Shown: positions 1-62,478, numbered from the stretch's first letter. The stretch: 64,000 nt of DNA from Candidatus Levybacteria bacterium RIFCSPHIGHO2_01_FULL_36_15b (GCA_001782045.1 MFNK01000003.1:204719-268718), one strand, 5' to 3'. Numbers and translations: made by a program. Notes: generated from the sequence alone by a model not told the origin.

Positions 1-888
1 TTGCAAATTTATTCTAGAATCAAAAAATGGGTAAATAGGATTACCCGTATTTATGTATGAAAATATAAACCAAGGGAGGGGTATAATGACTGCAGGTAGA
101 GTTAAGGATATAAAATTCACTAGAAAATCTTTAAAACTTTTACTAAAAAAAATAACCAGAAGACAGATAAAAATTAAAATAGATCCAGTCGCCAACAACT
201 TTGCGGATATTGCAAAACCCAATAAGGCACCAGAATATAAAAGCCATTTTTTACTTTTTATCTCATATGCTTTTATAAAAGCCCAAAATCCCATAATTTC
301 AAAAAAGGTTCTTGATAAGTCAGAATATGAAGCCATTGACTCCCAGCCCACTACTAAATTGCTATAAAAAATCAAAGTAGCCAGTAAGCTTAACTCTTGA
401 GAAAAAAACTTTCTTGATATTTTATAAATTGGAAAAAGTATAAGAACTCCAAATGTAAAATGAATAAGCTTAGCAAAAAACTCATCGCCAAAGGATAAAG
501 CAGCTACGTATATCATTTCAGTAAGCTTTGGCATATCTGAATAGTATAAAAGTGATCCTGGAATATGAAAAACTGCATGGTTTATTAAATACAATTTTGG
601 CAAGGTTAAATGGTACCAAAGCGCATCAAATGATATTTCAGGCCCTAATACGCCAACTAAATTTACAACAAACATTACTCCCAAGAGAAAAATGCAAACA
701 GCAGATATTCTATTAATTACTTTTTTGTTGAGAAAAATAACTTGACCTGGTTTAAAAAAGTAGAAAATGAAAAAAACCCAATATAGCAAGCTAACTATAA
801 ATATGTGGTTCTTAAAAAGCTGTCCTGTTATTCCAAGGAAAAAGATAAGATAAGAATATATTCCAATACTTACTGAAAACTTAAACAT
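1..888 (-). CDS. GT-C fold (PMT/ArnT-like, GT39/GT83-type) polytopic membrane glycosyltransferase, N-terminal 296 codons; gene runs off the window start
   Basis: Hand translation of the minus strand: ATG at complement(886..888) preceded by an in-frame TAG, then open with no stop down to position 1. Absent from the ORF track because it is truncated by the window edge. The product MFKFSVSIGIYSYLIFF... is very hydrophobic with many predicted TM helices. Loop motif FGDEFFAKL resembles the DE motif of PMT/ArnT enzymes. The C-terminal stretch ...YINTGNPIYPFF parallels ILTGNPFFPAY in the 13213..15027 paralog. The plus-strand ORFs 53..367 and 528..716 lie inside it and look spurious. Confidence 0.55.
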   Translation of the reverse strand, partial: MFKFSVSIGIYSYLIFFLGITGQLFKNHIFIVSLLYWVFFIFYFFKPGQVIFLNKKVINRISAVCIFLLGVMFVVNLVGVLGPEISFDALWYHLTLPKLYLINHAVFHIPGSLLYYSDMPKLTEMIYVAALSFGDEFFAKLIHFTFGVLILFPIYKISRKFFSQELSLLATLIFYSNLVVGWESMASYSDLSRTFFEIMGFWAFIKAYEIKSKKWLLYSGALLGFAISAKLLATGSILIFICLLVIFFSKSFKDFLVNFISLTLPAVIIPLPWFIFSYINTGNPIYPFFDSRINLQ

Positions 889-964
889 ATGTTTACTCTA
901 CATAAAAGATGAAAGAAGTAAAAATATAATATTAAAAGAACCCAAAAAATAAACGCTAAGGGTA

Positions 965-1720
965 TTATTTTTTTTGCCATAGTAGCCATAGCTTTCCTCT
1001 TACTAAAAATGAGTGAAAACTCATCATTAAAGCAAAAATAAGCCCTTCAATTCCATCAAGAAAACCAAACTTTATTAAATAATTTTTAAAAAATTTTGCA
1101 ATTGGATATATCATTATATCTTGTACTTTTGCTTTTACTTTACGCCCAAAAAGCTCTTGCGCTCTTAAAGAAGAATAATAATTAATATCCAGTAAAAATT
1201 CGTTTATGCTTTGATGTGGATAATGAAGTATTTGTCCATCTAATTCTCCTACTTCCCCATCTACTTGCCACTTCTCATGAACTTTTCCAACCCATGCTCC
1301 TGTTCCTCGCTTAGCAAGCCTTAATAACCTTATGTCTCCCGTTTCGCCGTGATTTAAAAGCTTATCCCACATAACATCAACTCTTTTTATAAAATATCCC
1401 GAAATATTATTTTCTCTATTTATGATTGTCGTATTTAATTCCTCCTTAAGACCAGAAGTTATTCTTTCATCCGCATCTAAAAATAATACCCAATCTTTTG
1501 TAGATTTTGATAATCCAAAGTTTCTTTGATTAGAAAAATTATCACTTAAAACATTTTTATATATTTTTATTTTTTTGTTTCCCAAGGAATTTATCACATC
1601 TATAGTTCTGTCCATAGAATTGTCATCTACGATTATAAGCTCATCCGCCCATACAGCAGTTTCTAAACAATCAATTATATTTTTTTCCTCATTTTTAGTT
1701 AGTATTACTATGCTAAGCAT
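965..1720 (-). CDS. GT2 family glycosyltransferase (small cytoplasmic, WaaE/KdtX-like)
   Basis: N-terminal IVILTKNEE..., then IIVDDNSMDRT and LDADE (DxD-type) motifs typical of the GT2 Rossmann fold. 251 aa. Stop overlaps the upstream gene at 1720. Confidence 0.8.
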   Translation of the reverse strand: MLSIVILTKNEEKNIIDCLETAVWADELIIVDDNSMDRTIDVINSLGNKKIKIYKNVLSDNFSNQRNFGLSKSTKDWVLFLDADERITSGLKEELNTTIINRENNISGYFIKRVDVMWDKLLNHGETGDIRLLRLAKRGTGAWVGKVHEKWQVDGEVGELDGQILHYPHQSINEFLLDINYYSSLRAQELFGRKVKAKVQDIMIYPIAKFFKNYLIKFGFLDGIEGLIFALMMSFHSFLVRGKLWLLWQKK

Positions 1721-3903
1721 TATTTATGTTTTACTATTTTTATTTCACTTGGGGTTTCAGTGATTATGTATATTAAATCTGCATTTTTAGTTACAGATGA
1801 TTTACCTAAATACCATGTTAAATACTGATAATTCATTGTAAAATTTTCAAATTCACTGCCTGGTCCCCTACCCAGAATTGTAAAGGTCTTGCCGTTTGAA
1901 TTTTCTACCATGTATCTTGCGACATTCAGTCTGTCCTGGAAAGTTGGTCCATATCCTCTACTAAAACCGATAAAATAATTATTAGAAATTAAATAGGTAA
2001 TATTTAAGTATCCGACAATAGATAATATTAATACTCCTAGGTAAAACAAATATCTATTTCTTGCAAGATAACTAATAAAAATCGAAACTACTATAACTAC
2101 AGGAACAAATAATGACATTAGATAAGCATTTGATGATGTTTTGTTTAATACTATACTTCCAAGTAGCACTATAAAGATAAGAAGTAGCAATAAAAATTCT
2201 TTTTTTAATTTTTTATGTTTTAATGTTTTCAATAGTAAGAATAAAGTACTTATAGCTACAACTACTGATGCAATTAGATTTGTATGAGGAAAAAAAATAT
2301 TTTGAAATGAAGAATTTAGGAAACTAAATACTTGACTAAACGAGTTTGTCATATTAATACTCAAGCTTGCTGACTTTAAAATTTTGTATAAAATCCACCC
2401 TAAAAATACAATGGTTTGTGGGAAACCATTCTTAAAATCGTAAATGATAATCGGAAGCATTGGAATAATAAAAGCGATTAGCGAAAATAATAAAATTTTA
2501 GCGTTGTGCAAGCCCGAATACCAATCCTTTTTCTTTACAAATCCATAAACAAATACTCCTATAAACACCACAGATAACACTATTGTTTGCAATTCAAAAT
2601 TATAGAGCATAACCAAAGAGAAAATTATTAAGGGAAAATAAAATTTTTTATTGTTAACCCACCTAAAAAGGCTATAAATAAAAAGTGCTACAAAAAATGG
2701 TATAAGCGAAGTGTGATATGCGGCTCTTGCGCTTAAAATTATTGCAGGAGAAAAAACGTATATAAGGGATGCAATCAATGCCGCTTCCTTAGTAAAAAAT
2801 TGCTTTACTAGTTTATATATCAAAATTAATGTAAAAATATCAAAAACCGCCGTAAAAACGTACGGTGCAATTGGATTAAATTTATAAATATAAAAGACAA
2901 AAGCAACTAAATAAGTCCAAATAGGTCCTTGATGAAGCCATAAGTGACTGGAAGTAATTCCAACTAGGGGAAGGCTTCCTGTTAAAAGAGCATCCCTTGC
3001 GGATAGATAAAACCACCCAATGTCTCCGTAGTAGGGAATATACTCATCGATTTTATACAAACGTATGGTGGTAGCAACAGCAATAGCTGACAATAACACC
3101 AAGCTATTGAAGTTAATATTAAGAAAAATCTCAATAATTAATGCTTTTATTATTCCAAAATGTTTTCTAAAATAATAAAATCTGCTTTTTTTAAATATAT
3201 CGTCCTTATTGTCTAGAAGCTTTGTGGTTGTACCCCACTTATGAATTAACTTAGAGGATGGATCAATAAAAATTTTATATCCAGCACCTCTTACTCGCTT
3301 GCACAAATCAAATTCCTCAAAATATAAAAAATAATTTTCGTCGAAACCACCTATTTTTTCAAAAACATTTTTTTTAATCAAAAAAGCCGAACCAGGAATA
3401 TTATCTACCTGCTTAGGCTTATTGTTCCATTTTTTTATCCAAAAGTTTTTAGAAATTGGATTTTTATTCCAAAGTTTATCAATAAATGAAAATTTAAATA
3501 TTGCCAATAATGGGGTTAATTCCCTAGCTCCTTGTTCCATAATTTTATTACTTGGGGTGTACAAAAGTGGTGCAATTATACCTATTTGCTTTTCTTTATT
3601 TAGTTTTTTAGCTAGCCTACCAAGTATATCTTCTGTAAAGATTGTATCGGGATTTAAAACAAATATATACTCACCACTAGCGTGTTTTACTCCTAAATTA
3701 ATCCCTGCTCCATATCCAATATTTCTTTTAGAAGAAATATATTCTAGATTTTTAAATTTACTTAATCTGTGTTTAATTTTCTGGTTTTCACTATTGTCAA
3801 CTATTATTACTTCAAAGTTTTCTTTTGTATTTTGATAAAGTGAAGATAGACACTCAATAAGATCTTTTTCATTTCGATAATGTACAATAATTATTGAAAT
3901 CAT
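1720..3903 (-). CDS. Fusion protein: N-terminal GT2 (WbbL/rhamnosyltransferase-like) plus C-terminal polytopic GT-C-like membrane domain
   Basis: Residues 1-250: IIIVHYRN, VIIVDNSEN, NIGYGAGIN, VLNPDT, YFLYFEEFDLC, the classic GT2 signature. Residues 250-727: about 12 hydrophobic segments with IDEYIPYYGDIGWFYLSARD and HQGPIWTY motifs shared with the 24493..26010 paralog. Confidence 0.75.
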   Translation of the reverse strand: MISIIIVHYRNEKDLIECLSSLYQNTKENFEVIIVDNSENQKIKHRLSKFKNLEYISSKRNIGYGAGINLGVKHASGEYIFVLNPDTIFTEDILGRLAKKLNKEKQIGIIAPLLYTPSNKIMEQGARELTPLLAIFKFSFIDKLWNKNPISKNFWIKKWNNKPKQVDNIPGSAFLIKKNVFEKIGGFDENYFLYFEEFDLCKRVRGAGYKIFIDPSSKLIHKWGTTTKLLDNKDDIFKKSRFYYFRKHFGIIKALIIEIFLNINFNSLVLLSAIAVATTIRLYKIDEYIPYYGDIGWFYLSARDALLTGSLPLVGITSSHLWLHQGPIWTYLVAFVFYIYKFNPIAPYVFTAVFDIFTLILIYKLVKQFFTKEAALIASLIYVFSPAIILSARAAYHTSLIPFFVALFIYSLFRWVNNKKFYFPLIIFSLVMLYNFELQTIVLSVVFIGVFVYGFVKKKDWYSGLHNAKILLFSLIAFIIPMLPIIIYDFKNGFPQTIVFLGWILYKILKSASLSINMTNSFSQVFSFLNSSFQNIFFPHTNLIASVVVAISTLFLLLKTLKHKKLKKEFLLLLLIFIVLLGSIVLNKTSSNAYLMSLFVPVVIVVSIFISYLARNRYLFYLGVLILSIVGYLNITYLISNNYFIGFSRGYGPTFQDRLNVARYMVENSNGKTFTILGRGPGSEFENFTMNYQYLTWYLGKSSVTKNADLIYIITETPSEIKIVKHK

Positions 3904-5000
3904 TTTAATGTTTTAAGGCTATTTTCTATTTCATTAGAGAAAGCTTTTGATTTTAGTTCCCAATCCCAATTTAATACGACATGCTCTCTTGCAGCAGCCG
4001 ATATATTTCTAATTGTAGTTGGTCTTCTTAATAAATACGATATTTTATTAGCAAGAATGCTACTATTTCTTTTAATTAAAATTCCCGTCTTTCCATTTAT
4101 AATAGTTTCCTTATATCCCCCTTCGTTTACTGCAATTACTACAACTCCACAGGACATTGCTTCCAAAGCTACTAAACCAAAGGGTTCGTTAACAGCAAAA
4201 CAAATAACGATTCTTGACTTAAGATACAGATCTTTTATATCATTGGTTGTTAACCACTGATCTTCGTTTAAAACTGTTTTAACCCTTAATTTATATTTAA
4301 TTTTTTTAGTCGCACTTTTAAAAAATTCATAACCGTCTATTGGGTGTTTAGAGCCAATAAAGAGAACATCTATTGTTTTGTTAACGTCCTTAGAGGGTTT
4401 AAAAAATTTAGTATCTACGCCCAAGTAAACAACCCTACTTTCTGTCCCATATGTTTTCTTTACTACTTTACTTGCAAATTGAGAATTAACATAAATTTCT
4501 GATGCACTTGAAAAGTTTTTCTTATCTATCATCCTTCTAAAAAACCTATTTAATTTCTCATATAGTGCCTTAATGGAAAAACCCTCTACTGCTAGTATCG
4601 GCTCGTAAATAATTCTATAATTTGGATCATGACAATAAAAGATACTAAATAAATTCAAATATCGAAGTACGTAGGGTGCTTCTGTGTATTCTGATCCATT
4701 AACTAAAACCGCGTCATAATGTTTTGAATTTATATCTAATGCAATTTTTCTATGTAATTTTTTTAGCTTTATAAGTTCTAAGGAATCCTTGTAAAGTCTT
4801 GTTTTCCAGTCACCTCCGCTCCATGCCTTAGCAGAAAAATTATAAAAGTAAATATGTTTAAATGGTAAATCGTCTTCTTTTTGTGACCCCGTGTAATAAA
4901 AATCAATCAAGTGTCCTAGTTTAATTAATTCTCTGGACAATGCATACACTGCATTCCTAGCTCCGCCGGGGGGTAATTCATGAAAAACTGCTATTCTCAT
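3900..5000 (-). CDS. GT4 family glycosyltransferase (retaining, GT-B fold)
   Basis: C-terminal EPFGLVALEAMSCGVVVIAVNEGG motif (E-x7-E region) typical of Glycos_transf_1. 366 aa. 4-nt overlap with neighbours. Confidence 0.85.
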   Translation of the reverse strand: MRIAVFHELPPGGARNAVYALSRELIKLGHLIDFYYTGSQKEDDLPFKHIYFYNFSAKAWSGGDWKTRLYKDSLELIKLKKLHRKIALDINSKHYDAVLVNGSEYTEAPYVLRYLNLFSIFYCHDPNYRIIYEPILAVEGFSIKALYEKLNRFFRRMIDKKNFSSASEIYVNSQFASKVVKKTYGTESRVVYLGVDTKFFKPSKDVNKTIDVLFIGSKHPIDGYEFFKSATKKIKYKLRVKTVLNEDQWLTTNDIKDLYLKSRIVICFAVNEPFGLVALEAMSCGVVVIAVNEGGYKETIINGKTGILIKRNSSILANKISYLLRRPTTIRNISAAAREHVVLNWDWELKSKAFSNEIENSLKTLK

Positions 5001-5836
5001 TTTGTATTTTTTAACACAGAGAAAAAATCACTTCCAAACCAGATGTTTAAAGGAAACAATCTTGATAAAGGATCTAAAAACACAATTAAATTGAATAATA
5101 AATCTTTCATGCTTTGTCTTTCTTTCCTCACAGTAATGTTCGTACTCTTAATGAATCCTTTGAAATTATATTTCTGAAAAAGTTTATATAATGAATAATA
5201 GGTAGGTTCGTTAATGTGCATTTTACTATGCGAATCCGCCCGTAACTTACTTGGCATTGCGATATTAGGATATTTGTTTCTGGAAAAATTATTCCAAAGA
5301 TTCACAATAAGTGTTGACATGGGATAACAATAATATTTGTATATATAATCATTAAATAGCCTATTAGGAGCAGTGTGTATAATTAGACTTCCTTGCGGCC
5401 TTAAGACTCTTTTTATCTCTTTAAAAACCAGCTCCAGCTCTTCTTCATATAGATGCTCTACGACATCAGTTAAAATTACGGTTGAAAAAAACGAACTTGG
5501 GAAAAGTAATTTCTTCGCGTCCATTTGTATGAAGCTCATGCGCTTCTTAATGGAAGCGTCTTTTTTTTCTTTAAGTAAATTTGCCAATTGAATTGCATCT
5601 TTTGCGTAATCTATTCCGTATGACTTACCCCCCAGTTTTGCACAGTAATATACTAACTCTCCCCTGCCGCAACCTATATCAAGTATCTTTAAGTTCTTAT
5701 GAATCTTTAGATAAGGGACAATTTCCTTAAACCTTGGTTCCAATAATTCGCCTAGTGTATACTTAAACTCCTGGTGTCCAGTACAATCAGTTAAGTAATA
5801 ATCTTTGGTATAAATTTTAGGATCAACTCTTCTCAT
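4997..5836 (-). CDS. Class I SAM-dependent methyltransferase
   Basis: Motif I LDIGCGRGELVYYCAKLGG, plus an acidic residue after beta-2 (GIDYAKD) and a post-I VILTDVVEHL pattern. Sits inside the glycan locus, so probably a sugar or lipid O-methyltransferase. Confidence 0.8.
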   Translation of the reverse strand: MRRVDPKIYTKDYYLTDCTGHQEFKYTLGELLEPRFKEIVPYLKIHKNLKILDIGCGRGELVYYCAKLGGKSYGIDYAKDAIQLANLLKEKKDASIKKRMSFIQMDAKKLLFPSSFFSTVILTDVVEHLYEEELELVFKEIKRVLRPQGSLIIHTAPNRLFNDYIYKYYCYPMSTLIVNLWNNFSRNKYPNIAMPSKLRADSHSKMHINEPTYYSLYKLFQKYNFKGFIKSTNITVRKERQSMKDLLFNLIVFLDPLSRLFPLNIWFGSDFFSVLKNTK

Positions 5837-5841
5837 TTATG

Positions 5842-7059
5842 TTATTTTAGTGTTTTATAGGTAAAGTAGAACATAAACGGTAGAGCAGCTAAAGTACCAA
5901 TTAATGCAGAAATACCCGCGCCGATAATACCATAAGCCTGAACCAAAGGGACTAATGTTACCGCCAAACCAAAAATACTAACTAAGGTAACGACACTAAC
6001 TTCTTTTTGCTTTCCTACTGAAAGAAGCAAAGATGAGGAAGAACCAGATATTGCCCTAATTACTCCGAATACCACGAGTATCTTTAACACATTAACCATT
6101 CCAAGCCATTTATCACCAAGTACAAGGATTACTATTCTATCGGTATAAATAAAAAGCACAAGACCAAAGGATATTGAAACTACGCTTACTAATAAAAGAC
6201 TTTTTAAAAAAGCTTTTGTAAGTCTTTGTTTATCTTCGGAAATTAATGAATATACTGGAAAAGTTACTTTGGATACTACGTCAGACACATCAGTAATGGG
6301 CAACCGGGAAATATTGTATGCCATTACGTATAATCCAAGATTTACAGTGCCTAACATTCTTCCTACTATTATATTATCTAAATTGTGGTATAAATAACTG
6401 AATATACCACTTAGAGTTATCCACTTACCACGATTGATAACAAGAAAAAGTTTTTCTTTTTCTAGCCTTATCTTTGGGATTGGCTTTACTAATATAAAAG
6501 AAAGAATAACCTCAAGCAGCGCACCACAAATAAGTCCTACTGCAAGACTTAAAACAGATTTTGTGTAAAAAGCTAATGTAATCGCAATTAAAGAATCCAT
6601 TAAAAGAATAGAAATTCTAAACCACAGTTCTTTATCAAACCTAAGTTCTTTTTGAAACTTTATAATCGATGGGTTAATAAATCCCCTAATCAGTGGAACT
6701 AAGCTAAATAGCAACAGCAAGCCAAATGCATCAGGTGCATTAAAAAATTGCGAAACATAAGAAGAAGTAAGAAGCATTAAAGCAAAAATAATTACTCCTC
6801 TTAAAATCGACAATAACCATGCTGTATCGATATATTTGTTTGTACTCTCTTTGTTTTGTATAAGAAAAACATTGATTCCGGTTTCTGTCAATATCTCAGC
6901 AAAAGACAAAACCAAGATTCCAATCCCATAAATTCCAAATTGTGAGGGCAAGAGTATTCTAGCCAACAAGATAGTTCTAGCTATCGAAATAAATCTTGTA
7001 GAAGCGGTTAAAATCCAACTCCACGAAATGCCTTTGATTGCATCGCCTGTGTAGCCCAT
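5842..7059 (-). CDS. MOP-superfamily oligosaccharide flippase (Wzx-like polysaccharide biosynthesis protein)
   Basis: 405 aa, about 12 predicted TM helices. Resembles the PF01943-type polysaccharide biosynthesis protein family from memory. Sits in the GT cluster. Confidence 0.7.
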   Translation of the reverse strand: MGYTGDAIKGISWSWILTASTRFISIARTILLARILLPSQFGIYGIGILVLSFAEILTETGINVFLIQNKESTNKYIDTAWLLSILRGVIIFALMLLTSSYVSQFFNAPDAFGLLLLFSLVPLIRGFINPSIIKFQKELRFDKELWFRISILLMDSLIAITLAFYTKSVLSLAVGLICGALLEVILSFILVKPIPKIRLEKEKLFLVINRGKWITLSGIFSYLYHNLDNIIVGRMLGTVNLGLYVMAYNISRLPITDVSDVVSKVTFPVYSLISEDKQRLTKAFLKSLLLVSVVSISFGLVLFIYTDRIVILVLGDKWLGMVNVLKILVVFGVIRAISGSSSSLLLSVGKQKEVSVVTLVSIFGLAVTLVPLVQAYGIIGAGISALIGTLAALPFMFYFTYKTLK

Positions 7060-7090
7060 ATATGGCTATTTAAGTATAGCAGATACGGTA

Positions 7091-7120
7091 TTGAATTCTA
7101 AACAGTTTCTCGGCTATAAT
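7091..7120 (+). promoter_or_regulatory. Sigma70-like promoter for the 7138..8349 gene (TTGAAT-N18-TATAAT)
   Basis: TTGAAT at 7091..7096 and TATAAT at 7115..7120 in the 78-bp divergent intergenic region, 18 nt upstream of the ATG at 7138. Confidence 0.4.
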
Positions 7121-7137
7121 ATTACTCTGCCGAAATA

Positions 7138-8349
7138 ATGAAAATAAAAAAATGTAGATCTTGCAGCTTTAAAGATTTAGTTTTGATTTTATCCCTTGGC
7201 AAGCAATACCTCTCAGACTTTGTTAAATCAAATAAGAAACCGAAAGCATTTCCATTAAATATTGTTCTATGTAAAAATTGCAAACTGGTGCAGTTAGACT
7301 ATACTTCCCCCTCAAAATATTTATATACAGAACGCTATGGATACAAATCCGGTATTAATCAAACAATGAAAGACGAGTTAAGTAACATCGTAAAAAAATC
7401 GCTTGAGAAAATAAAAAAAAGTAAAAAAGAGCTTATCGCAATAGATATTGGAGCTAATGATGGAACACTTTTAAGCTATTATCCCAAAGAAGTTTATAGA
7501 GTAGCAGTTGAGCCGATCAAAAAGTTTGCAAATGAATCTAAGAAATATTCAAATAAAGTAGTCAATGATTTTTTTAACTTTAAATCGTTTGATAAAAACG
7601 TCAAAAAGAAGGCAGATATTATAACCGTTATATCTTGCTTTTATGATATGGAGAACCCAAATAAATTTATTGAAGACATGAAAAAAATAATGAACGAGGA
7701 TGCCGTAGTTGTAATACAACAGAATTATCTTGTTGAAATGTTGAATAAAAACGCTTTTGATAACATAGTACACGAGCATCTTGAATATTATTCCCTTTTA
7801 TCACTTAATAATTTACTGCAAAAGCATGGTTTGGAGGTATTTGATGTAGAAATAAGAGAATTAAACGGCGGTAGCTTTAGAACCTTCATTGCAAACAAAG
7901 GCCAAAGAAAAATTACCAAACGTGTGTTAAAAATGCAACAAACTGAAAAGAGAATGAAACTGGACAATAAGGATACATATGTTAAATTTGCAAAAAGAAT
8001 AAAAGAGAACAAAATAAAAGTTTTAAGTACAATACGTAAAATAGTTAAGGATAAAAAGAGAATTTATTTATACGGCGCTTCAACGCGCGGAAATACTCTT
8101 TTACAGTATTTTGAACTAAGTAAAAATCTTATTTCCTATGCTGTTGAGAGAAATCCAGAAAAATGGGGTAAGAAGATTGCTTCTGTAGGAATACCTATAA
8201 TATCTGAAGAGCAGGCAAGGAAAGACAATCCAGAATATATGTTAGTATTGCCATGGTTTTTTAAAAAAGAGTTTCTAAAAAGAGAAGCAAATTATTTAAA
8301 AACCGGGGGACATTTTATATTCCCTCTTCCAAAACTCGACGTTATTTAG
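7138..8349 (+). CDS. SAM-dependent C-methyltransferase family protein (zinc-ribbon plus methyltransferase plus C-MT C-terminal domain; NDP-hexose C-methyltransferase TylCIII-like)
   Basis: N-terminal CRSC...LGKQYLSDF...CKNCKLVQLD zinc-ribbon pattern as in TylC3-type enzymes. Glycine-rich SAM motif AIDIGANDGTLL. 403 aa. Confidence 0.7.
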   Translation: MKIKKCRSCSFKDLVLILSLGKQYLSDFVKSNKKPKAFPLNIVLCKNCKLVQLDYTSPSKYLYTERYGYKSGINQTMKDELSNIVKKSLEKIKKSKKELIAIDIGANDGTLLSYYPKEVYRVAVEPIKKFANESKKYSNKVVNDFFNFKSFDKNVKKKADIITVISCFYDMENPNKFIEDMKKIMNEDAVVVIQQNYLVEMLNKNAFDNIVHEHLEYYSLLSLNNLLQKHGLEVFDVEIRELNGGSFRTFIANKGQRKITKRVLKMQQTEKRMKLDNKDTYVKFAKRIKENKIKVLSTIRKIVKDKKRIYLYGASTRGNTLLQYFELSKNLISYAVERNPEKWGKKIASVGIPIISEEQARKDNPEYMLVLPWFFKKEFLKREANYLKTGGHFIFPLPKLDVI

Positions 8350-10600
8350 AAGTTTTATAAATGCTAACAATTGGAGCACCCCCTGAAATAATTTGGTGTA
8401 CTAACTTATAATCTCTTTTAATACTTGAGTCGTCAAATCCTTCTCTTAAGACGTGATAATAATTTACTACAATGTAATCATACTTCTTTCCATCTTTATA
8501 GAGCTCAAGATTCAAATTCTTAATATTTGGAAAGCTTTTTGGAGGATTTACGGCTAATCCCACGTTTGACTCTTTAGGAGCATTTTGTTCTAAATAAATT
8601 GCAGCTTCTCGCATGCCATCGCCCCACCATCCCAAATGAAAATATTTTTTTTCATAAACCCCCTTCTGTCCTCCAACTAGCTCGTTATAATAATTTAAAA
8701 AATAAGGAGCATTATTTTTTACAATTATTAATAAATACGCTAAAACAATTAAAAGAATAATTATCTTAGAAAATGATGTTTTAATAAACTTAAATTTATT
8801 TTTTAGAAAAATTGTTATGGCGTATGCACCCATTCCAGCAATAATTGAAAGGGGAACATAAATTTCAATAATATAGCGTACTCCGTGCATTCTCCATGGG
8901 TAAAAAGATTGTATAAATGGAAAAATAAACCAAATAATCAAACTTATATTGATCCAGCTTCTATTTTTATCTATAAATTTTAAGCCAAGTAAAAATAAAA
9001 TAATAAGTAATAACGGCGTCGTGATAAAAAACATTGTTGGAAAATAAATAACCGGGCTTAAAATCAATTTTCCCCAAAATACTTCAGGGGGCGCAGTATT
9101 AACTAACCAGATTTTTTTATTTACTTCGGCAATATAATCAAGGTGGGTATACGGCATCGGCCAAAAGACAACAAATGTCAAAATGGATACAAATATAATT
9201 ATAAAAAACGAATAGATTATCTTCCTATTGAATAGTTTTATATTTGTTTTATTGTACAGATAATAAGTTAAGTAAAATAATCCATATAAGGGAAAAAGAA
9301 GTCCATTGGATTGTTTAGTTAAAAGAGCTAATCCTGTAATTATTCCAACTAATACTGCTTTTTTATACGAGAAGCTTCTAAGCAACCTATAAAACACGTA
9401 AACACCCAGTGTAAAGAAGAACATTAAAAAACTTTCTGTCGTTACTTGTTGCGAAAGCCCGACAAAAAATGGAAGTAGTAAAAATATAATTGCAGCGGAA
9501 AATGCTACAAATACCGATGCTAGTTCTAAAGTGAAAATAAAAACTAAAACTGCAGAAAGACTTCCAACTATAGATGAAAAAATTCTTGAATAAGTGTAAT
9601 TATAATTAAATACTGGATTGCCGCTAGAATCAAGTTTATCAACATCTAAATGAGCAGTTAGTCCATATAGATATTTAACTAAAGGGGGATGATCATAAGT
9701 AGTATAAAAAAAACTGTTTCCAAAATCCCCCACTTTTAAAAGTTCTATCATTTTATATCCTTGCTCAATATATTCAGGCTCATCCCACGTTCTTCCCATT
9801 TGATTCAAAGTAGAAATTCTTACAGATAAAGCGAGCAAAAATATCACGAGGCATAAAAAAAATTTATTTTTATAAAAAATAGGAAGTTCATGCATAATTT
9901 TCATTTTTATAACGAAGAATAAAGAATAAAATAGTTCTTTAATACTAACATTCGATTTTCCAAATTTTCTGTAATTCCAAGTAATTGGAACCTCACCTAT
10001 GCTAAATCCTTTGATATGTAGTTTATATAAGGACTCTGATAATGTAATAAATCCCTTAGACTCAATATCGCTCCTCAGAAGCTCAGCCACTGCTTTTCTA
10101 CTATATGCTCTAAATCCGCTCGTAAAATCGGTTACCTTAATGCCTAGCCAAAATCTTAAAAAAACGTTTATAAGCCTACTTAATATAGTTCTTTGTTTTT
10201 CAATATTTTTAATCTTCCCTCCCGGAAGGTAACGAGATCCAATAATAAGATCATAATTTCCTAACTCATCCTTTTCCAAGAATCGTTTAATTTCATTTGG
10301 ATCATGCGCCAAATCGGAGTCCATTTCTAAAAATAGATCTGAATTGTTTTTTCTAAATGCAATTTTGAAACCATCCAACACTGCGCTTCCCCTACCTAGT
10401 TTTTTTATTCTTGATATAAGACCTACTTGTTTATATTTATTTACTATAGATTTTATAATTCTATTCTCTTCATATGATGAATCATCGACTAAATATATCA
10501 GTGCTTCGGGATAGAGACGGTTTACTTTTTGTAGTAATATTTTGAGACTTTTTGACTCATTAAAGGAAGGAATTATTATTGAAGGAACATTATTTTTCAT
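8342..10600 (-). CDS. Fusion protein: polyprenyl-phosphate sugar synthase-like GT2 (DPM1/GtrB/ArnC type) plus C-terminal GT-C (PMT/ArnT-like) membrane domain
   Basis: Residues 1-235: IIIPSFNE, YLVDDSS, EMDSDLAHDP, GSRY, DFTSGFRAYSRK, close to the DPM1/GtrB pattern. Residues 240-752: more than 10 TM helices with a WDEPEYIEQGY loop (DE motif) and a soluble C-terminal domain. Confidence 0.75.
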   Translation of the reverse strand: MKNNVPSIIIPSFNESKSLKILLQKVNRLYPEALIYLVDDSSYEENRIIKSIVNKYKQVGLISRIKKLGRGSAVLDGFKIAFRKNNSDLFLEMDSDLAHDPNEIKRFLEKDELGNYDLIIGSRYLPGGKIKNIEKQRTILSRLINVFLRFWLGIKVTDFTSGFRAYSRKAVAELLRSDIESKGFITLSESLYKLHIKGFSIGEVPITWNYRKFGKSNVSIKELFYSLFFVIKMKIMHELPIFYKNKFFLCLVIFLLALSVRISTLNQMGRTWDEPEYIEQGYKMIELLKVGDFGNSFFYTTYDHPPLVKYLYGLTAHLDVDKLDSSGNPVFNYNYTYSRIFSSIVGSLSAVLVFIFTLELASVFVAFSAAIIFLLLPFFVGLSQQVTTESFLMFFFTLGVYVFYRLLRSFSYKKAVLVGIITGLALLTKQSNGLLFPLYGLFYLTYYLYNKTNIKLFNRKIIYSFFIIIFVSILTFVVFWPMPYTHLDYIAEVNKKIWLVNTAPPEVFWGKLILSPVIYFPTMFFITTPLLLIILFLLGLKFIDKNRSWINISLIIWFIFPFIQSFYPWRMHGVRYIIEIYVPLSIIAGMGAYAITIFLKNKFKFIKTSFSKIIILLIVLAYLLIIVKNNAPYFLNYYNELVGGQKGVYEKKYFHLGWWGDGMREAAIYLEQNAPKESNVGLAVNPPKSFPNIKNLNLELYKDGKKYDYIVVNYYHVLREGFDDSSIKRDYKLVHQIISGGAPIVSIYKTSK

Positions 10601-13253
10601 AGATTGAAATGCTATTAGGCGCTTGCACTATTGCAGATAAATAATAATTAAGATCATTTGTAAAATAGTTTAGGTATGTAAAATTAGGCACAAAAACAGC
10701 AATTTTTTTGTATCCCAAATCTGTAATTCTATTTAATATTTCCCTTGTTTCAGATCTAGATAAATGTTTTGATTTAAGTTCCTCATTTGTCAAAACTATA
10801 TATTTGGGAAAATTATTATCCTGCTTATTAATAATTTTGTAATTAAAATTCTTATAATCTTTTATTCCGTATTGGTTTAAATAAAATTCCTTCAGGACAA
10901 TATCAGGAAGTCCTTGATAAATTGGAATGTTTTCAATTCCAATTGTCGAGCCGATTTTTACATTACTTTTTAACCAACTAGATGACTTTTGCCTCGGGTC
11001 TTCTGCAAATTTTAAAAGCATCCAGGATAATGCTTGAGTCAATTGAATTATTAATAAAACCATTACTATTAGTATAAGTAAAGGTCTGCGTGTTAAATTT
11101 CTTATTTGCTGAAATAATAATCCAAAAAATATTGCAAAGAATGGTAATAGAGATAAAGCCCTATTATTTGATGCGTCAAGTTTAAGCGGAATAAGGCTAA
11201 GAGCAAATAAAATAAATGAGAGAAATAGGAAAAATGTTTCTTTTGAGATATTAATTTTTTTGTCCTTTATAAAGTCTAATAACGTTTTAGTTAATATATA
11301 CATTAGATAAAATGCGCTTATCGTAAATAAGATATAACCAAATAATGCAGGATATATATTTGTAATTAGGTATTTCCAAATGTTGTCATTAATCACAACA
11401 TTTGAGATAGTAGCTGTCGGAGTTCTTATTAAATTGGACGATATGTACTCATACAAGCTCCCTTTGCCCAGCAGAATGTCGGGAATCCCAAAGGATAAAA
11501 ATGCGATGACATATAAAAATAACGAAGCGTAAAGCCATTTGATTTTTTTTAAAGCATTAGGGGTATAGAAAACAAATAAGAATATAATCAGTACAAGAAG
11601 AGCAATTGGTTGTAGCTTAACGGACAATGCTATTGATGAAAAAATTGAAACAAACATAAGATCTATAAGAGTCGGATTTTTTATGTATCTGAACATAAAT
11701 AAAAAAGAACAAAGTGTCCAGAACATCAATGCTATGTCATATTTAAAATAATTACTTAACATTAACCAAACTGGATTAAAAACGAATACGAATGTTGATA
11801 CAAGCGGGTTAAGTTTGAAATATTTTTTGCATAAAAAGTAAAAGACTACAATACTAGCTATTCCAAAAAGAATTGTATTAAACCTAAGGATTTCAAATAG
11901 CTTAGTTTGTTCGTCGAGGTTTAAGACTGAAGATTTTATCGCAACTGGATTGATGATACCTAGAATAATAAAAGGAATAAGATATAGTCCGGATAGGAAG
12001 AAATGAAAAATAGAACCATTAGCTGAACCTTCAATATTTGGCGAGCCAAATGTAAATAAATTTCTTACAGATTGTGCTTGATGCCATTCATCCATAAAAT
12101 AATTAAACGGGTGACTAGAATTGGGTATTCCCCAACTAATCATTGCAAGCATCAATATCAAGTAAGATAAAACTAAAGCCGTAAGACTCTTATTTTTTTC
12201 CATAAAATTTATAAATTGACTGGGCCTTAGTTTCTTTAGAAAAGCTAAACTCGAACCAGTAAGAACTGCTATATCGGAAGTAAACTGGAGTAGAGGAAGA
12301 TACATAAAGGCTTTCTTTTCTTTTATATATCTGTAATTCTTATTAATTGCCCAGAGCAAATAACTTAAAAATAAAGTAAGTAATATTAAATTAAGTAGTA
12401 GTGATTTCATAATCGCCGATAACATTAGCAAATATATTGCGAAGAGATATCTTAAGAAAATATAAATAACTTTATTTCGTATAAGACCCGCTTCTATGTC
12501 TCCGTAAGCAAACCTTGTAAACATTTTGAGGGCTTGAGTAATGCTTTTTCTAGGCTCCCAATAGACTACTGCTTTTTTTTCGAATGTAATTTTAACACCA
12601 TGTTCTTTTAACCTAGTTGCAAACTCATAATCTTCATTATGAGATAATTTTTCATTAAATCTCCCAACTTTCTTCCATACTTTTTTTCTAAAGGCCATAG
12701 ATCGGGTAGCAGGAAGAAACGTATTAGGATCCACTTTATCCCTCATAACTAATACATATGGTATTAATGCTCTTTGAAAAGAACTATTTGCTTGCCCCTT
12801 GTAATATCCCGCCACCACACCTGTAGATTTCTTTTTAAAAGGAGCAACTATGTTCTCAACCCATTTCTTATCTAAAATACATCCCGCGTCTGTCGAAAGA
12901 ATTATATTTCCTTTACTTTTCTTTATTGCCTCATTTCTTCCAACCGATCTATTTCCTTTTTTAACATAAAGCTTAATATTGAGTTTAGGTAGTTTTACTA
13001 TATTTTCCTTTATTATTTCTCTCGTTTTGTCAAAACTACCCCCATCTACAAATACTATCTCATCGGGTATAACAGATTGGATAGTAATAGAATTAATAAG
13101 TTGCTGCACGGTCTTCTCTTCATTAAAGACGGTACATATTAAAGATGTTTTTAACGTAGACATAAGATTTGTTGAAATTATAACATCTCGTAGTTTAGAA
13201 TACATTAAATAAATGAATTTATTCTTACAGCTTATTCCCAACTTATCTTCCAA
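10590..13253 (-). CDS. Fusion protein: GT2 glycosyltransferase plus C-terminal GT-C-like membrane domain (likely real start near 13163)
   Basis: ICTVFNEE, FVDGGSFDKT, GRNEA, STDAG, HNEDYEF: GT2 signature. Then a large polytopic region with an MDEWHQA loop motif. The track start at 13253 overlaps the divergent gene by 41 nt; the internal Met (MSTLKTSLICTVFNEE) at 13163 is more plausible. Confidence 0.7.
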   Translation of the reverse strand: MEDKLGISCKNKFIYLMYSKLRDVIISTNLMSTLKTSLICTVFNEEKTVQQLINSITIQSVIPDEIVFVDGGSFDKTREIIKENIVKLPKLNIKLYVKKGNRSVGRNEAIKKSKGNIILSTDAGCILDKKWVENIVAPFKKKSTGVVAGYYKGQANSSFQRALIPYVLVMRDKVDPNTFLPATRSMAFRKKVWKKVGRFNEKLSHNEDYEFATRLKEHGVKITFEKKAVVYWEPRKSITQALKMFTRFAYGDIEAGLIRNKVIYIFLRYLFAIYLLMLSAIMKSLLLNLILLTLFLSYLLWAINKNYRYIKEKKAFMYLPLLQFTSDIAVLTGSSLAFLKKLRPSQFINFMEKNKSLTALVLSYLILMLAMISWGIPNSSHPFNYFMDEWHQAQSVRNLFTFGSPNIEGSANGSIFHFFLSGLYLIPFIILGIINPVAIKSSVLNLDEQTKLFEILRFNTILFGIASIVVFYFLCKKYFKLNPLVSTFVFVFNPVWLMLSNYFKYDIALMFWTLCSFLFMFRYIKNPTLIDLMFVSIFSSIALSVKLQPIALLVLIIFLFVFYTPNALKKIKWLYASLFLYVIAFLSFGIPDILLGKGSLYEYISSNLIRTPTATISNVVINDNIWKYLITNIYPALFGYILFTISAFYLMYILTKTLLDFIKDKKINISKETFFLFLSFILFALSLIPLKLDASNNRALSLLPFFAIFFGLLFQQIRNLTRRPLLILIVMVLLIIQLTQALSWMLLKFAEDPRQKSSSWLKSNVKIGSTIGIENIPIYQGLPDIVLKEFYLNQYGIKDYKNFNYKIINKQDNNFPKYIVLTNEELKSKHLSRSETREILNRITDLGYKKIAVFVPNFTYLNYFTNDLNYYLSAIVQAPNSISIYEK

Positions 13254-53002: not shown

Positions 53003-53032
53003 GATGTTAATTATAGCCTAAAGTGCGCTTTG

Positions 53033-54244: not shown

Positions 54245-54298
54245 ACATGTTCCATGGAGTTGTAAAATTATATTTTAATTGCATTTTTCTAACGGGAT

Positions 54299-58893: not shown

Positions 58894-58897
58894 CTAT

Positions 58898-60564: not shown

Positions 60565-60597
60565 TTTACCTCTTCATAAATTTTAGCAGAAATAACA

Positions 60598-62472: not shown

Positions 62473-62478
62473 TTCTAA

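What the first reader, a model, noticed from the sequence alone, without database searches (positions are those of the whole stretch)
1720..13253. Three GT2-GT-C fusion proteins: cytoplasmic lipid-sugar synthase or nucleotide-sugar transferase fused to an extracytoplasmic polyprenyl-phosphate-sugar-dependent transferase
Three ORFs (1720..3903, 727 aa; 8342..10600, 752 aa; 10590..13253, 887 aa) each have an N-terminal soluble GT2 domain followed by a roughly 500-aa polytopic GT-C-like domain carrying an acidic loop motif (IDEY, WDEPEY, MDEW). The 8342 protein's GT2 half is the DPM1/GtrB/ArnC type that makes polyprenyl-P-hexose, which is exactly the donor class used by GT-C enzymes on the outer face. 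The fusion would couple donor synthesis and donor consumption in one polypeptide, yet no GtrA-type small flippase is seen nearby. This single-chain GtrB-plus-GtrC logic is unusual and, if real, is a compact membrane glycosylation module.
Basis: partly seen in the sequence, partly recalled or inferred. Interest (0 to 1): 0.65.

Follow-up and report, generated by a model that had tools for sequence, protein, structure and literature searches.

The report
Fused inside-outside membrane glycosyltransferases in Levybacteria
Three real, conserved genes in an uncultured Levybacteria (CPR) genome each join a cytoplasmic sugar transferase to an outward-facing lipid-sugar-dependent membrane transferase; one of them joins the enzyme that makes the lipid-sugar donor to an enzyme of the type that uses it, an arrangement I found undescribed in the literature but common in this bacterial group.

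Summary

The window comes from Candidatus Levybacteria RIFCSPLOWO2_01_FULL_36.

Only P2 (8342..10600) has a polyprenyl-phosphate-sugar synthase domain. It keeps the DXD motif and the Arg/Arg/Ser phosphate-binding triad of Pyrococcus DPMS. Its GT-C half is PMT-like with an invariant WDE loop. In relatives the two halves are separate genes, either adjacent or a few kb apart, and the free synthase has no membrane helix.

P1 and P3 carry other GT2 types (WbbL-like and PcManGT-like), which probably act on hydroxyl acceptors.

Three points weaken the idea that the fusion exists to couple donor synthesis to donor use:
- The same GT-C is fused to a GT4 enzyme in some relatives.
- A conserved Wzx-type flippase gene lies two genes from P2.
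- The architecture is common in this clade.

Verdict: a new variant of the GtrB/GtrA/GtrC-type three-component system. Function is inferred, not shown. Interest is moderate.

The parts
8342..10600 (-). P2, 752 aa: a DPMS/GtrB-type polyprenyl-phosphate hexose synthase domain that has no membrane helix of its own, fused to an 11-helix PMT-like GT-C module with a C-terminal extracytoplasmic alpha/beta domain.
   Evidence: Pfam; PDB sequence matches; AF2 model with pLDDT 87.6 and pTM 0.79; Foldseek matches to 5mlz, ArnC and GtrB and to STT3, PglB, ALG9 and ArnT.
9866..10600 (-). P2 GT2 (synthase) domain, residues 1-245. Carries E15, D40, D94-x-D96, H99, R123, R137, S141 and R211.
   Evidence: Residues were mapped onto the PfDPMS residues described in PMC5526996 using the alignment. 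D40, D94, D96, H99, R123, R137 and S141 are invariant in the 36 fused homologues; E15 is E in 34 of 36 and R211 is R in 30 and K in 6.
8342..9865 (-). P2 GT-C module, residues 246-752. TM1 is 246-263; the first outer loop carries the invariant W272-D273-E274; K429/Q430 are also conserved; the C-terminal domain is 640-752.
   Evidence: The family profile matches yeast Pmt2 (6p25_B) at E 4.7e-7.
10590..13163 (-). P3, 857 aa from the ATG at 13163 (the ORF extends to a TTG at 13253). A membrane-embedded GT2 (GT-A domain plus a helical hairpin and interface helices) fused to a GT-C module with an invariant M-D-E-W-H loop.
1720..3903 (-). P1, 727 aa: a WbbL/rhamnosyltransferase-like GT2 (residues 1 to about 255) fused to a GT-C module. 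One helix separates the GT2 from an outer loop carrying the invariant D294.
   Evidence: Pfam GT2, Glyco_tranf_2_2 and PMT_2 at 32 bits; NCBIfam TIGR01556; alignment A3; co-linear hhalign to the P2 family, probability 98%, E 1.7e-13. No structure model was made.
5842..7059 (-). Wzx/MOP-family flippase candidate (Polysacc_synt_3), conserved in the syntenic cluster.
   Evidence: Pfam E 2.7e-66; synteny in L002, L007, L010, L011, L013, L017, L020 and L022.
7138..8349 (+). NDP-hexose C-methyltransferase-like gene (Methyltransf_14/13), convergent with P2. It is the most conserved neighbour in the cluster.
   Evidence: Pfam; 61-70% identity in syntenic loci.
3900..5000 (-). GT4 glycosyltransferase (GT4a). 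Its orthologue is fused to the P2-type GT-C in some relatives.
   Evidence: Pfam; fusions P0059, P0064, P0085, P0100 and L015, L016, L078.
4997..5836 (-). SAM-dependent methyltransferase belonging to the cluster.
   Evidence: Pfam; synteny.
965..1720 (-). Small stand-alone GT2 (251 aa), not of the DPMS type, conserved downstream of P1.
   Evidence: Pfam and NCBIfam; synteny.
13213..15027 (+). M4, a polytopic membrane protein that is probably GT-C-like. It is divergent from P3 and conserved in the cluster.
   Evidence: NCBIfam LIC_10190 and LA_3751 families, both below cut-off; hhalign to the P2 GT-C profile, probability 77%, E 2e-5; synteny.
15027..16748 (+). M5, a polytopic membrane protein of uncertain family, conserved in the cluster.
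   Evidence: PF10131 at 25.5 bits, just below cut-off; no relation to the P2 profile; synteny.
1..897 (-). Another PMT_2-type GT-C gene, cut by the window edge.
   Evidence: Pfam PMT_2 at 30.4 bits.
16709..17782 (-). Second GT4 glycosyltransferase (GT4b) at the cluster edge.
   Evidence: Pfam; present in L007.

Best explanation
The region is a conserved Levybacteria (CPR/Patescibacteria) cell-surface glycan or glycoprotein biosynthesis cluster. In it, cytoplasmic glycosyltransferase domains are tethered to the cytoplasmic N-terminus of outward-acting GT-C enzymes.

Proposed mechanism for P2:
1. The N-terminal DPMS-type GT2 domain, which has no membrane helix of its own, is held at the inner membrane face by the GT-C's first helix.
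2. It transfers a hexose from a nucleotide sugar to polyprenyl phosphate. The DxDLxH motif and a ManC-like gene in the window hint weakly at GDP-mannose.
3. The polyprenyl-P-hexose is moved to the outer leaflet, most plausibly by the conserved Wzx/MOP protein two genes away or by an unlinked flippase.
4. The PMT-like GT-C half uses it as donor, with the invariant Asp273/Glu274 loop as the catalytic centre. It glycosylates an extracytoplasmic acceptor, either a protein Ser/Thr or a wall glycan.

The fusion most likely does two things. It anchors and activates a synthase that has no anchor of its own, as DPM3, GacJ/WpsB or the Ppm1 membrane domain do elsewhere. It also co-localises donor production with one of its consumers.

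P1 and P3 pair a hydroxyl-directed GT2 on the inside with a GT-C on the outside. They probably act on successive inside and outside steps of the same glycan, not on donor synthesis.

Shown here: domain identities, folds, conserved catalytic residues, conservation of the fusions, and split/fused orthology. Inferred: topology, the sugar, the flippase, the acceptor, and any channelling.
For: - Domain and fold identity.
- P2's synthase keeps the catalytic and polyprenyl-phosphate-binding residues defined in PfDPMS (PMC5526996). D40, D94/D96, H99, R123, R137 and S141 are invariant in all 36 fused homologues; E15 (34 of 36) and R211 (R or K) are nearly so.
- GT-C loop acids are invariant.
- Positive-inside counts using the AF2 helices are 16 in versus 6 out for P2 and 24 versus 8 for P3. 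This fits GT2 inside and the acidic loop outside.
- The syntenic cluster M5-M4-P3-P2-CMT-Wzx-MT-GT4-P1-GT2 is conserved in other genomes.
- P2 is split into an adjacent 250-aa GT2 and 510-aa GT-C in L013. It is split and separated by a few kb in L010, L017, L020 and L022.
- DPMS-type GT2 genes lie next to or near the homologous GT-C in distant bacterial and archaeal MAGs.
- Free Levybacteria synthases of 233-252 aa lack any membrane helix.
- The same synthase is fused to a YfhO-type GT-C in P0110.
- Precedents for membrane partners of anchorless GtrB-type synthases, and for Wzx/MATE-type flippases of undecaprenyl-P-sugars, are in PMC10821137, bioRxiv 10.1101/180810 and PMC11127046.
- Fused P2 homologues occur as lone genes away from any glycan cluster in L003, L006 and L009. 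That fits a self-contained synthase-plus-transferase unit.
Against: - There are no biochemical data. The sugar, lipid carrier and acceptor are all unknown.
- P2 scores far below every NCBIfam equivalog cut-off (for example 56 bits against 529 for ArnC), so specificity cannot be transferred.
- The metal-binding Gln93 of PfDPMS is Ala98 in P2.
- The window holds eight or more GT-C-like genes and a second, classical GtrB-type synthase with two membrane helices (63045..63980). The P2 synthase may therefore feed several transferases rather than its own.
- The P2-type GT-C occurs more often unfused (30 loci) than fused to the synthase (9), and is sometimes fused to a GT4 (3). The fusion is dispensable and may reflect gene adjacency.
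- I could not inspect model coordinates or PAE, so the geometry between the domains is unverified.
- Topology was inferred from hydropathy, AF2 helices and the positive-inside rule, not from a dedicated predictor.
Confidence: 0.6

Rival explanations
1. Anchor-only fusion. The GT-C part of P2 serves mainly as the membrane anchor and activator for an anchorless polyprenyl-P-hexose synthase. That synthase is the general donor supplier for the many GT-C enzymes of the cell. There is no preferential hand-off to the fused GT-C, and the fusion arose neutrally from neighbouring genes.
For: - Free synthases in relatives have no membrane helix.
- There are eight or more GT-C-like genes in this 64-kb window.
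- DPMS-type GT2 domains are fused to many unrelated membrane partners: GtrA/DPMS_TM, Lnt, YfhO and unknown domains.
- GT4-GT-C fusions of neighbouring genes occur in the same clade.
- Most P2-type GT-C genes are unfused.
- Known parallels are GacJ-GacI and WpsB-WpsA. From my own knowledge, Ppm1 of M. tuberculosis is another.
Against: - The synthase gene is repeatedly next to or near this particular GT-C family across distant phyla.
- The synthase is fused to two different GT-C families, not to arbitrary membrane proteins.
- Lone fused genes far from other GT-C genes in the retrieved 20-kb loci suggest the pair works as a unit.
Confidence: 0.25
2. Self-contained translocating machine. P2, and perhaps P1 and P3, synthesises the lipid-linked sugar, moves it across the membrane through its own transmembrane domain, and consumes it, with no separate flippase.
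For: - No GtrA homologue was found in the window.
- Fused P2 homologues occur as isolated genes with no flippase-like neighbour within 10 kb.
- CPR genomes are small, which would favour compaction (my own knowledge).
Against: - A Wzx/MOP flippase gene is conserved in the cluster.
- The GtrA search was a single-sequence search of only 64 kb of the genome.
- As far as I know, no GT-C enzyme has been shown to flip its donor.
- Nothing in the sequence or the models was tested for a translocation path.
Confidence: 0.1
3. Degenerate domains. One half of each fusion is catalytically dead and serves only a structural or regulatory role, for example a pseudo-GT2 that regulates the GT-C.
For: - P3's 'DXD' is D-A-G, with only one Asp.
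- P2 has Ala at the position of the metal-binding Gln93.
Against: - Nucleotide-binding, DXD, acceptor-phosphate and A-loop residues of P2 are invariant or nearly invariant across 36 homologues at 43-70% identity.
- The acidic pairs of P1 (E196, D199) and P3 (E177, D178) are invariant, as are the GT-C loop acids.
- From my own knowledge, eukaryotic DPM1 also lacks the Gln.
Confidence: 0.05

Closest known systems
GtrB/GtrA/GtrC-type three-component transmembrane glycosylation systems. Examples: O-antigen glucosylation in Shigella/Salmonella; CsbB-GtcA-YfhO; GacI/J/K/L of Streptococcus pyogenes; the Citrobacter pentofuranose system.
   Same: A GT2 synthase makes polyprenyl-P-sugar on the inside and a GT-C transferase uses it on the outside. 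A MOP/Wzx-type protein is the proposed flippase in the GacK and Citrobacter ORF14 versions. The genes are clustered with glycan genes.
   Different: In P2 the synthase and the GT-C are one polypeptide. No GtrA-type protein was found in the window. The synthase domain has no membrane helices of its own. The acceptor is unknown. The GT-C is PMT-like, not of the GtrC, YfhO or GacL families.
Dolichyl-phosphate mannose synthase of Pyrococcus furiosus (PDB 5mlz) and eukaryotic DPM1.
   Same: This is the best sequence and structure match for P2's N-terminal domain. The DXD motif, His94, and the Arg117/Arg131/Ser135 phosphate site are conserved. Like human DPM1, the free Levybacteria versions have no membrane anchor.
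   Different: PfDPMS is fused to a GtrA-like four-helix domain (Pfam GtrA_DPMS_TM), not to a GT-C. Gln93 is Ala in P2. The sugar specificity of P2 is untested.
Protein O-mannosyltransferases (GT39; yeast Pmt1/2/4, Mycobacterium tuberculosis PMT) and ArnT (GT83).
   Different: There is no MIR domain. Instead a C-terminal alpha/beta domain of about 110-140 aa is present. An N-terminal cytoplasmic GT2 is fused. Sequence identity to the solved enzymes is only 10-13%. The acceptor class (protein or glycan) is not known.
Ppm1 of Mycobacterium tuberculosis (Rv2051c), a polyprenol-P-mannose synthase fused to an Lnt-like membrane domain. It is split into two proteins in M. smegmatis and Corynebacterium (my own knowledge). 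Lnt-GT2 relatives were seen here as P0114, P0116 and P0504.
   Same: A DPMS-type catalytic domain with no anchor of its own is fused in some lineages, and split in others, to a polytopic membrane protein from a related envelope pathway.
   Different: The partner there is a CN-hydrolase/Lnt domain placed N-terminal to the synthase. Here the partner is a GT-C transferase placed C-terminal to it, and it is a predicted consumer of the product.
PcManGT of Pyrobaculum calidifontis (PDB 6yv7), a minimal cellulose-synthase-like membrane GT2.
   Different: P3 continues into a GT-C module of about 550 aa. Its DXD motif is D-A-G. Donor and acceptor are unknown.

Membership tests
DPMS/GtrB/ArnC-type polyprenyl-phosphate glycosyltransferase (GT2): P2 N-terminal domain | GT-A fold with a DXD motif and significant similarity to solved members | tested here: met
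   Pfam PF00535 E 1.5e-23. 5mlz E 2e-19 for the single sequence and 7e-32 for the family profile; ArnC E 9e-18. Foldseek on the model: 5mlz E 4e-13, ArnC, GtrB 9nyd. D94-S-D96 is invariant.
DPMS/GtrB/ArnC-type polyprenyl-phosphate glycosyltransferase (GT2): P2 N-terminal domain | Acceptor-phosphate binding residues (PfDPMS Arg117, Arg131, Ser135) and the A-loop Arg202 | tested here: met
   By the alignment these are R123, R137, S141 and R211. The first three are invariant in 36 fused homologues; R211 is R or K. Residue roles are taken from PMC5526996.
DPMS/GtrB/ArnC-type polyprenyl-phosphate glycosyltransferase (GT2): P2 N-terminal domain | Equivalog-level match to a characterised enzyme, which would fix the sugar specificity | tested here: not met
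   NCBIfam ArnC 56.2 bits against cut-off 529; PgfS 55.9 against 500; PpgS 51.7 against 370; AglJ 50.4 against 325. Family-level membership only; the sugar is unknown.
DPMS/GtrB/ArnC-type polyprenyl-phosphate glycosyltransferase (GT2): P2 N-terminal domain | Formation of polyprenyl-P-sugar from an NDP-sugar | not testable with these tools
   Needs an enzyme assay.
DPMS/GtrB-type synthase: P1 and P3 N-terminal domains | Best similarity to DPMS/GtrB/ArnC, and a conserved phosphate-binding triad | tested here: not met
GT-C fold glycosyltransferases (PMT/ArnT/STT3-like; Pfam PMT, PMT_2) | Pfam PMT or PMT_2 at or above the gathering score | tested here: met
   P1 PMT_2 32.0 against 26.1. P2 PMT 59.3 against 22.7 and PMT_2 32.0. 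P3 is below the cut-off (20.0 against 26.1), although many P3 homologues carry precomputed PF13231 or PF02366 hits.
GT-C fold glycosyltransferases (PMT/ArnT/STT3-like; Pfam PMT, PMT_2) | GT-C three-dimensional fold | tested here: met
GT-C fold glycosyltransferases (PMT/ArnT/STT3-like; Pfam PMT, PMT_2) | Conserved acidic residue(s) in the first extracytoplasmic loop after TM1 | tested here: met
P2 W272-D273-E274 is invariant in 47 sequences. P3 M-D-E-W-H is invariant in 50. That the loop lies outside the cell is inferred from topology, not measured.
Eukaryote-type protein O-mannosyltransferase (GT39 sensu stricto) | Lumenal MIR (beta-trefoil) domain between transmembrane helices | tested here: not met
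   No MIR family appears in the Pfam scans of P1-P3. The AF2 secondary structure shows a C-terminal alpha/beta domain instead. From my own knowledge, bacterial PMTs also lack MIR, so this excludes only the eukaryotic subtype.
Gtr-type three-component system | A small GtrA-family flippase encoded with the synthase and the GT-C | tested here: not met
   phmmer and tblastn with the GtrA domain of P0113 against all window ORFs gave a best E of 0.03, on a spurious antisense ORF. Sensitivity is limited and only 64 kb was searched. A Wzx/MOP-type candidate is present instead.

The most novel reading that the evidence does not exclude
P2-type proteins are complete single-polypeptide transmembrane glycosylation machines. 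The same chain charges polyprenyl phosphate with a sugar at the inner face, guides or flips the lipid-linked sugar along its own transmembrane domain, and transfers the sugar to an external acceptor. No dedicated flippase would be needed. This would be a minimal solution evolved in the reduced genomes of CPR bacteria.
Probability: 0.1. Interest if true: 0.85.

Novelty: new variant of a known kind. Interest (0 to 1): 0.5.

Why it matters
How polyprenyl-phosphate sugars get from the synthase on the inner face to GT-C enzymes on the outer face is still poorly understood. Flippase assignments (GtrA, Wzx/MATE types) are largely genetic or bioinformatic.

A natural, stable fusion of a synthase to a GT-C consumer gives a single protein in which both active sites have a fixed stoichiometry and geometry. 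That makes it an attractive target for cryo-EM and for reconstitution experiments on donor hand-off and flipping.

The fusion also serves as 'Rosetta stone' evidence. It assigns a donor-supplying enzyme to a large uncharacterised PMT-like GT-C family found in CPR bacteria and in archaeal MAGs.

More broadly, the cluster has three inside-outside fusion enzymes, several further GT-C genes, a Wzx protein and sugar methyltransferases, but no recognisable initiating phosphoglycosyltransferase. This suggests that Levybacteria build a surface glycan or glycoprotein by a route resembling mycobacterial lipomannan assembly or protein O-mannosylation. Almost nothing is known about CPR cell envelopes.

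The limits are plain. Everything functional is inferred, the organism is uncultured, and the proteins are already in public databases under generic names.

Tried and rejected
- **Assembly or frameshift artefact: rejected.** Each fusion is a single uninterrupted ORF, with co-linear full-length homologues in dozens to hundreds of independent assemblies.
- **All three GT2 domains make lipid-sugar donors: rejected for P1 and P3.** Their family and structure matches are to other GT2 types.
- **GtrA search:** phmmer and tblastn with one GtrA domain found nothing credible. This is weak negative evidence only.
- **Literature:** seven full-text searches for GT2-GT-C or GtrB-GT-C fusions, CPR glycosylation and PcManGT found no description of this architecture. 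The library lacks most subscription journals, so absence is not proof.
- **PDB profile searches for P1 and P3** found only GT2 matches; the GT-C halves are too diverged for sequence-only detection.
- **Positive-inside counts on strict loops** were uninformative (5 versus 5 for P2). They became informative only when helix ends were included.
- **M5 (15027..16748)** could not be linked to GT-C by hhalign.
- **The cluster look-up for distant fused relatives** returned almost no taxonomy.
- **The record titles 'uncultured Gammaproteobacteria'** on many related loci conflict with their Levybacteria-like gene content, so I did not use them for taxonomy.

Full report
**1. What is in the sequence**

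The window has low G+C (about 30-35%). It is identical at protein level to genes A3B38_01725, _01750 and _01755 of 'Candidatus Levybacteria bacterium RIFCSPLOWO2_01_FULL_36', a member of the Candidate Phyla Radiation/Patescibacteria (P0241, P0001, P0121).

| ORF | Coordinates | Pfam result |
|---|---|---|
| P1 | 1720..3903 | GT2 (E 1e-23); PMT_2 32.0 bits (cut-off 26.1) |
| P2 | 8342..10600 | GT2 (E 1.5e-23); PMT 59.3 bits (cut-off 22.7); PMT_2 |
| P3 | 10590..13253 | GT2 and Glyco_tranf_2_3; PMT_2 only 20 bits (below cut-off) |

P3 probably starts at the ATG at 13163, giving 857 aa. That is the start in the public record and the point where all homologues begin.

**2. Are the fusions real?**

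Yes. Each is one uninterrupted ORF. Each architecture recurs co-linearly at 41-70% identity in many clusters assembled independently by NCBI, JGI, ENA and Logan. There are about 45 full-length clusters for P2. For P3 and P1, every one of the 120 listed hits is a full-length fusion. Both halves keep invariant catalytic-type residues. A frameshift artefact is excluded.

**3. Folds**

AlphaFold2 models built on family alignments are confident. P2 has pLDDT 87.6 and pTM 0.79. P3 has pLDDT 89.3 and pTM 0.84.

Foldseek matches the N-terminal third of the P2 model to Pyrococcus DPMS (5mlz, E 4e-13), ArnC and GtrB. It matches the rest to STT3, PglB, ALG9, ALG12 and ArnT.

Profile-profile comparison links the GT-C modules of P2 and P3 (probability 97.4%, E 1.5e-11). 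It aligns P1 co-linearly with P2 over 551 columns (probability 98%, E 1.7e-13). The P2 family profile also finds yeast Pmt2 by sequence alone (E 4.7e-7).

**4. Topology**

None of the three has a hydrophobic segment before the GT2 domain.
- In P1 and P2, one helix follows the GT2 domain and leads into the loop with the conserved acids.
- In P3, a helical hairpin and a Lys/Arg-rich loop precede the first GT-C helix.

Using the AF2 helices, Lys+Arg around short loops number 16 (predicted inside) against 6 (outside) for P2, and 24 against 8 for P3. This agrees with GT2 in the cytoplasm and the acidic loop and C-terminal alpha/beta domain outside, as in characterised GT-C enzymes. It remains an inference. 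No dedicated topology predictor or experiment was available.

**5. Which kind of GT2?**

Only P2's is the lipid-phosphate-sugar synthase type. Its best NCBIfam families are ArnC, PgfS, PpgS and AglJ, all far below equivalog cut-offs, so the sugar cannot be assigned.

I mapped P2 onto the residues described for PfDPMS in PMC5526996, using the alignment:

| PfDPMS residue | Role | P2 residue |
|---|---|---|
| Glu12 | A-loop network | E15 |
| Asp39 | nucleotide base | D40 |
| Asp89/Asp91 | DXD motif | D94/D96 |
| His94 | sugar contact | H99 |
| Arg117, Arg131, Ser135 | Dol-P phosphate triad | R123, R137, S141 |
| Arg202 | A-loop | R211 |
| Gln93 | metal binding | A98 (not conserved) |

D40, D94, D96, H99, R123, R137 and S141 are invariant in 36 fused homologues. 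E15 is E in 34 of 36, and R211 is R in 30 and K in 6.

P1's GT2 is rhamnosyltransferase/WbbL-like (TIGR01556, PF10111). P3's is a membrane-embedded PcManGT/cellulose-synthase-like GT2. Both carry invariant acidic pairs (P1 E196/D199; P3 E177/D178) of the kind that acts as general base for hydroxyl acceptors in inverting GT-A enzymes. I therefore do not think P1 and P3 make polyprenyl-P-sugar donors.

**6. Context and comparative genomics**

The three genes belong to a cluster conserved in order in other Levybacteria genomes (L007, L022, L010, L011, L013, L017):

M5 - M4 (GT-C-like) - P3 - P2 - C-methyltransferase - Wzx/MOP flippase - methyltransferase - GT4 - P1 - small GT2

In the window another PMT_2 gene follows at the edge.

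Every fusion has split counterparts:
- P2 is two adjacent genes in L013 (250 aa and 510 aa, in the same position).
- P2 is two separated genes in L010, L017, L020 and L022. In L022 these are a 236-aa GT2 at 61% identity and a 517-aa GT-C located between GT4 and P1.
- P3 is split in L011.
- P1 is partly split in L010.

A census of the 80 retrieved species-representative loci gives:

| Arrangement | Loci |
|---|---|
| P2-type GT-C alone | 30 |
| P2-type GT-C fused to the synthase | 9 |
| P2-type GT-C fused to the neighbouring GT4 | 3 |
| P1 fused / split | 17 / 1-2 |
| P3 fused / split | 10 / 3 |

The free synthases (233-252 aa) have no membrane helix. In distant lineages a separate DPMS-type GT2 gene lies beside or near the homologous GT-C. 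These include a Clostridia MAG and Saccharibacteria, Woesearchaeota, Methanosarcinales and Altiarchaeota MAGs. The same synthase is fused to a YfhO-type GT-C in P0110.

Together this is good 'Rosetta stone' evidence that the synthase and this GT-C family work in one pathway. It also shows that the fusion is optional and partly a product of gene adjacency.

**7. Flippase**

No GtrA homologue was detected in the window (limited sensitivity). A Wzx/MOP gene (5842..7059) is, however, a conserved member of the cluster. Wzx- or MATE-type proteins have been proposed as flippases for undecaprenyl-P-monosaccharides: GacK (bioRxiv 10.1101/180810) and Citrobacter ORF14 (PMC11127046).

On the other hand, fused P2 homologues in L003, L006 and L009 sit alone between purine genes and a MacB-type exporter, with no glycan genes within 10 kb. 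That leaves a small chance that the protein needs no dedicated partner.

**8. Most likely mechanism**

Steps are marked as shown or inferred.

- *Shown:* two intact, conserved catalytic modules of the stated types sit in one chain, and split/fused orthology links them.
- *Inferred:* the GT2 domain of P2, held at the inner face by the GT-C's first helix, makes polyprenyl-P-hexose. GDP-mannose is hinted at weakly by the DxDLxH motif and by a ManC-like gene at 49749..50831.
- *Inferred:* the lipid-sugar is flipped, most plausibly by the Wzx protein.
- *Inferred:* the PMT-like module, with Asp273/Glu274, transfers the sugar to an external protein or glycan acceptor.

The fusion plausibly replaces the small membrane partner that anchorless GtrB-type synthases need elsewhere: GacJ and WpsB (PMC10821137), and DPM3 and the Ppm1 membrane domain from my own knowledge. 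It also places donor synthesis next to a consumer.

P1 and P3 probably combine an inner-face sugar addition to a hydroxyl acceptor with an outer-face GT-C step on the same product.

**9. Comparison with what is known, and novelty**

Functionally this is a variant of the GtrB/GtrA/GtrC-type three-component system and of the DPMS-plus-PMT pair. Known fusions of the synthase are with GtrA-like domains (PfDPMS; P0113, P0454) and with Lnt-like domains (Ppm1; P0504). A synthase-GT-C fusion was not found in seven full-text literature searches. The library is incomplete, and the proteins themselves are already deposited under generic names.

I rate it a new variant of a known kind, of moderate interest. 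It is not surprising in principle, because GT-C N-termini are cytoplasmic and fusions follow operon neighbours. It could be useful as a model for donor hand-off and flipping, and it gives a first handle on CPR surface glycosylation.

Noticed in passing
related loci L015 (2951-5626), L016 (758-3463), L078 (8873-11533); proteins P0059, P0064, P0085, P0100: In some Levybacteria the orthologue of the cluster's GT4 enzyme (window 3900..5000) is fused to the N-terminus of the P2-type GT-C, giving proteins of about 890 aa. Both GT-B and GT-A cytoplasmic enzymes therefore get fused to the same GT-C.
   Followed up: partly
protein P0110 (979 aa, Logan assembly): A synthase domain very close to the P2 family consensus is fused to a YfhO-type GT-C (PF09586) instead of the PMT-like one.
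   Followed up: partly
proteins P0452, P0455, P0464, P0470, P0488, P0498, P0503: Relatives of the P2-type GT-C of about 700-760 aa carry an N-terminal PA14 carbohydrate-binding domain instead of a GT2. The topology of such an N-terminal extracellular-type domain was not examined.
   Followed up: no
window 49749..63980: There is a second glycan gene cluster. It holds a ManC-like nucleotidyltransferase (49749..50831), four GT4 genes, a PMT_2 GT-C (54299..55732), a hexapeptide acyltransferase (58898..59461), and a classical GtrB-layout GT2 with two C-terminal membrane helices (63045..63980).
   Followed up: partly
window 55729..58893 and 60598..62472 (minus strand): Two large polytopic membrane proteins have no Pfam match at E 0.001 or below. 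One is 1054 aa with about 22 hydrophobic segments; the other is 624 aa. Both lie inside the second glycan cluster.
   Followed up: no
window 1..897, 13213..15027, 26056..27717, 54299..55732 plus P1-P3: The 64-kb window is unusually dense in GT-C-type genes: at least seven with Pfam or profile support, and M5 as a possible eighth.
   Followed up: partly
window 13163..13253: The P3 ORF extends 30 codons upstream to a TTG, but homologues and the public record start at the ATG at 13163. That leaves only about 49 bp between the divergent P3 and the ORF starting at 13213, whose own true start may also lie further downstream.
   Followed up: partly
L003, L006, L009 (fused gene at about 10000-12220): Fused P2-type genes (43-47% identity) occur as isolated genes between purine biosynthesis genes and a MacB/HlyD-type ABC exporter plus an alpha/beta hydrolase. 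No other glycosylation genes lie within 10 kb.
   Followed up: partly
loci L001, L003-L005, L007-L009, L012 and others: Many related contigs are titled 'uncultured Gammaproteobacteria bacterium' although their gene content and 45-60% identities match the Levybacteria cluster. The record titles look unreliable.
   Followed up: no
window 19923..21005 and 32128..33198; 33195..34208: Two FtsW/RodA-family genes and a MraY-type Glycos_transf_4 gene lie downstream of the cluster, together with ParB, signal peptidase, ribosomal protein L21 and a class I tRNA synthetase. These are ordinary housekeeping genes. No initiating phosphoglycosyltransferase other than the MraY-like gene was seen among the ORFs I scanned with Pfam; several ORFs between 27.7 and 49.7 kb were not scanned.
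   Followed up: no
protein P0476/P0509 (739 aa, Elusimicrobiota MAG, annotated 'polyprenol monophosphomannose synthase') and P0417 (1050 aa): These DPMS-type GT2 domains are followed by 500-800 residues with no Pfam match. They may be further synthase-membrane-domain fusions in other phyla.
   Followed up: no
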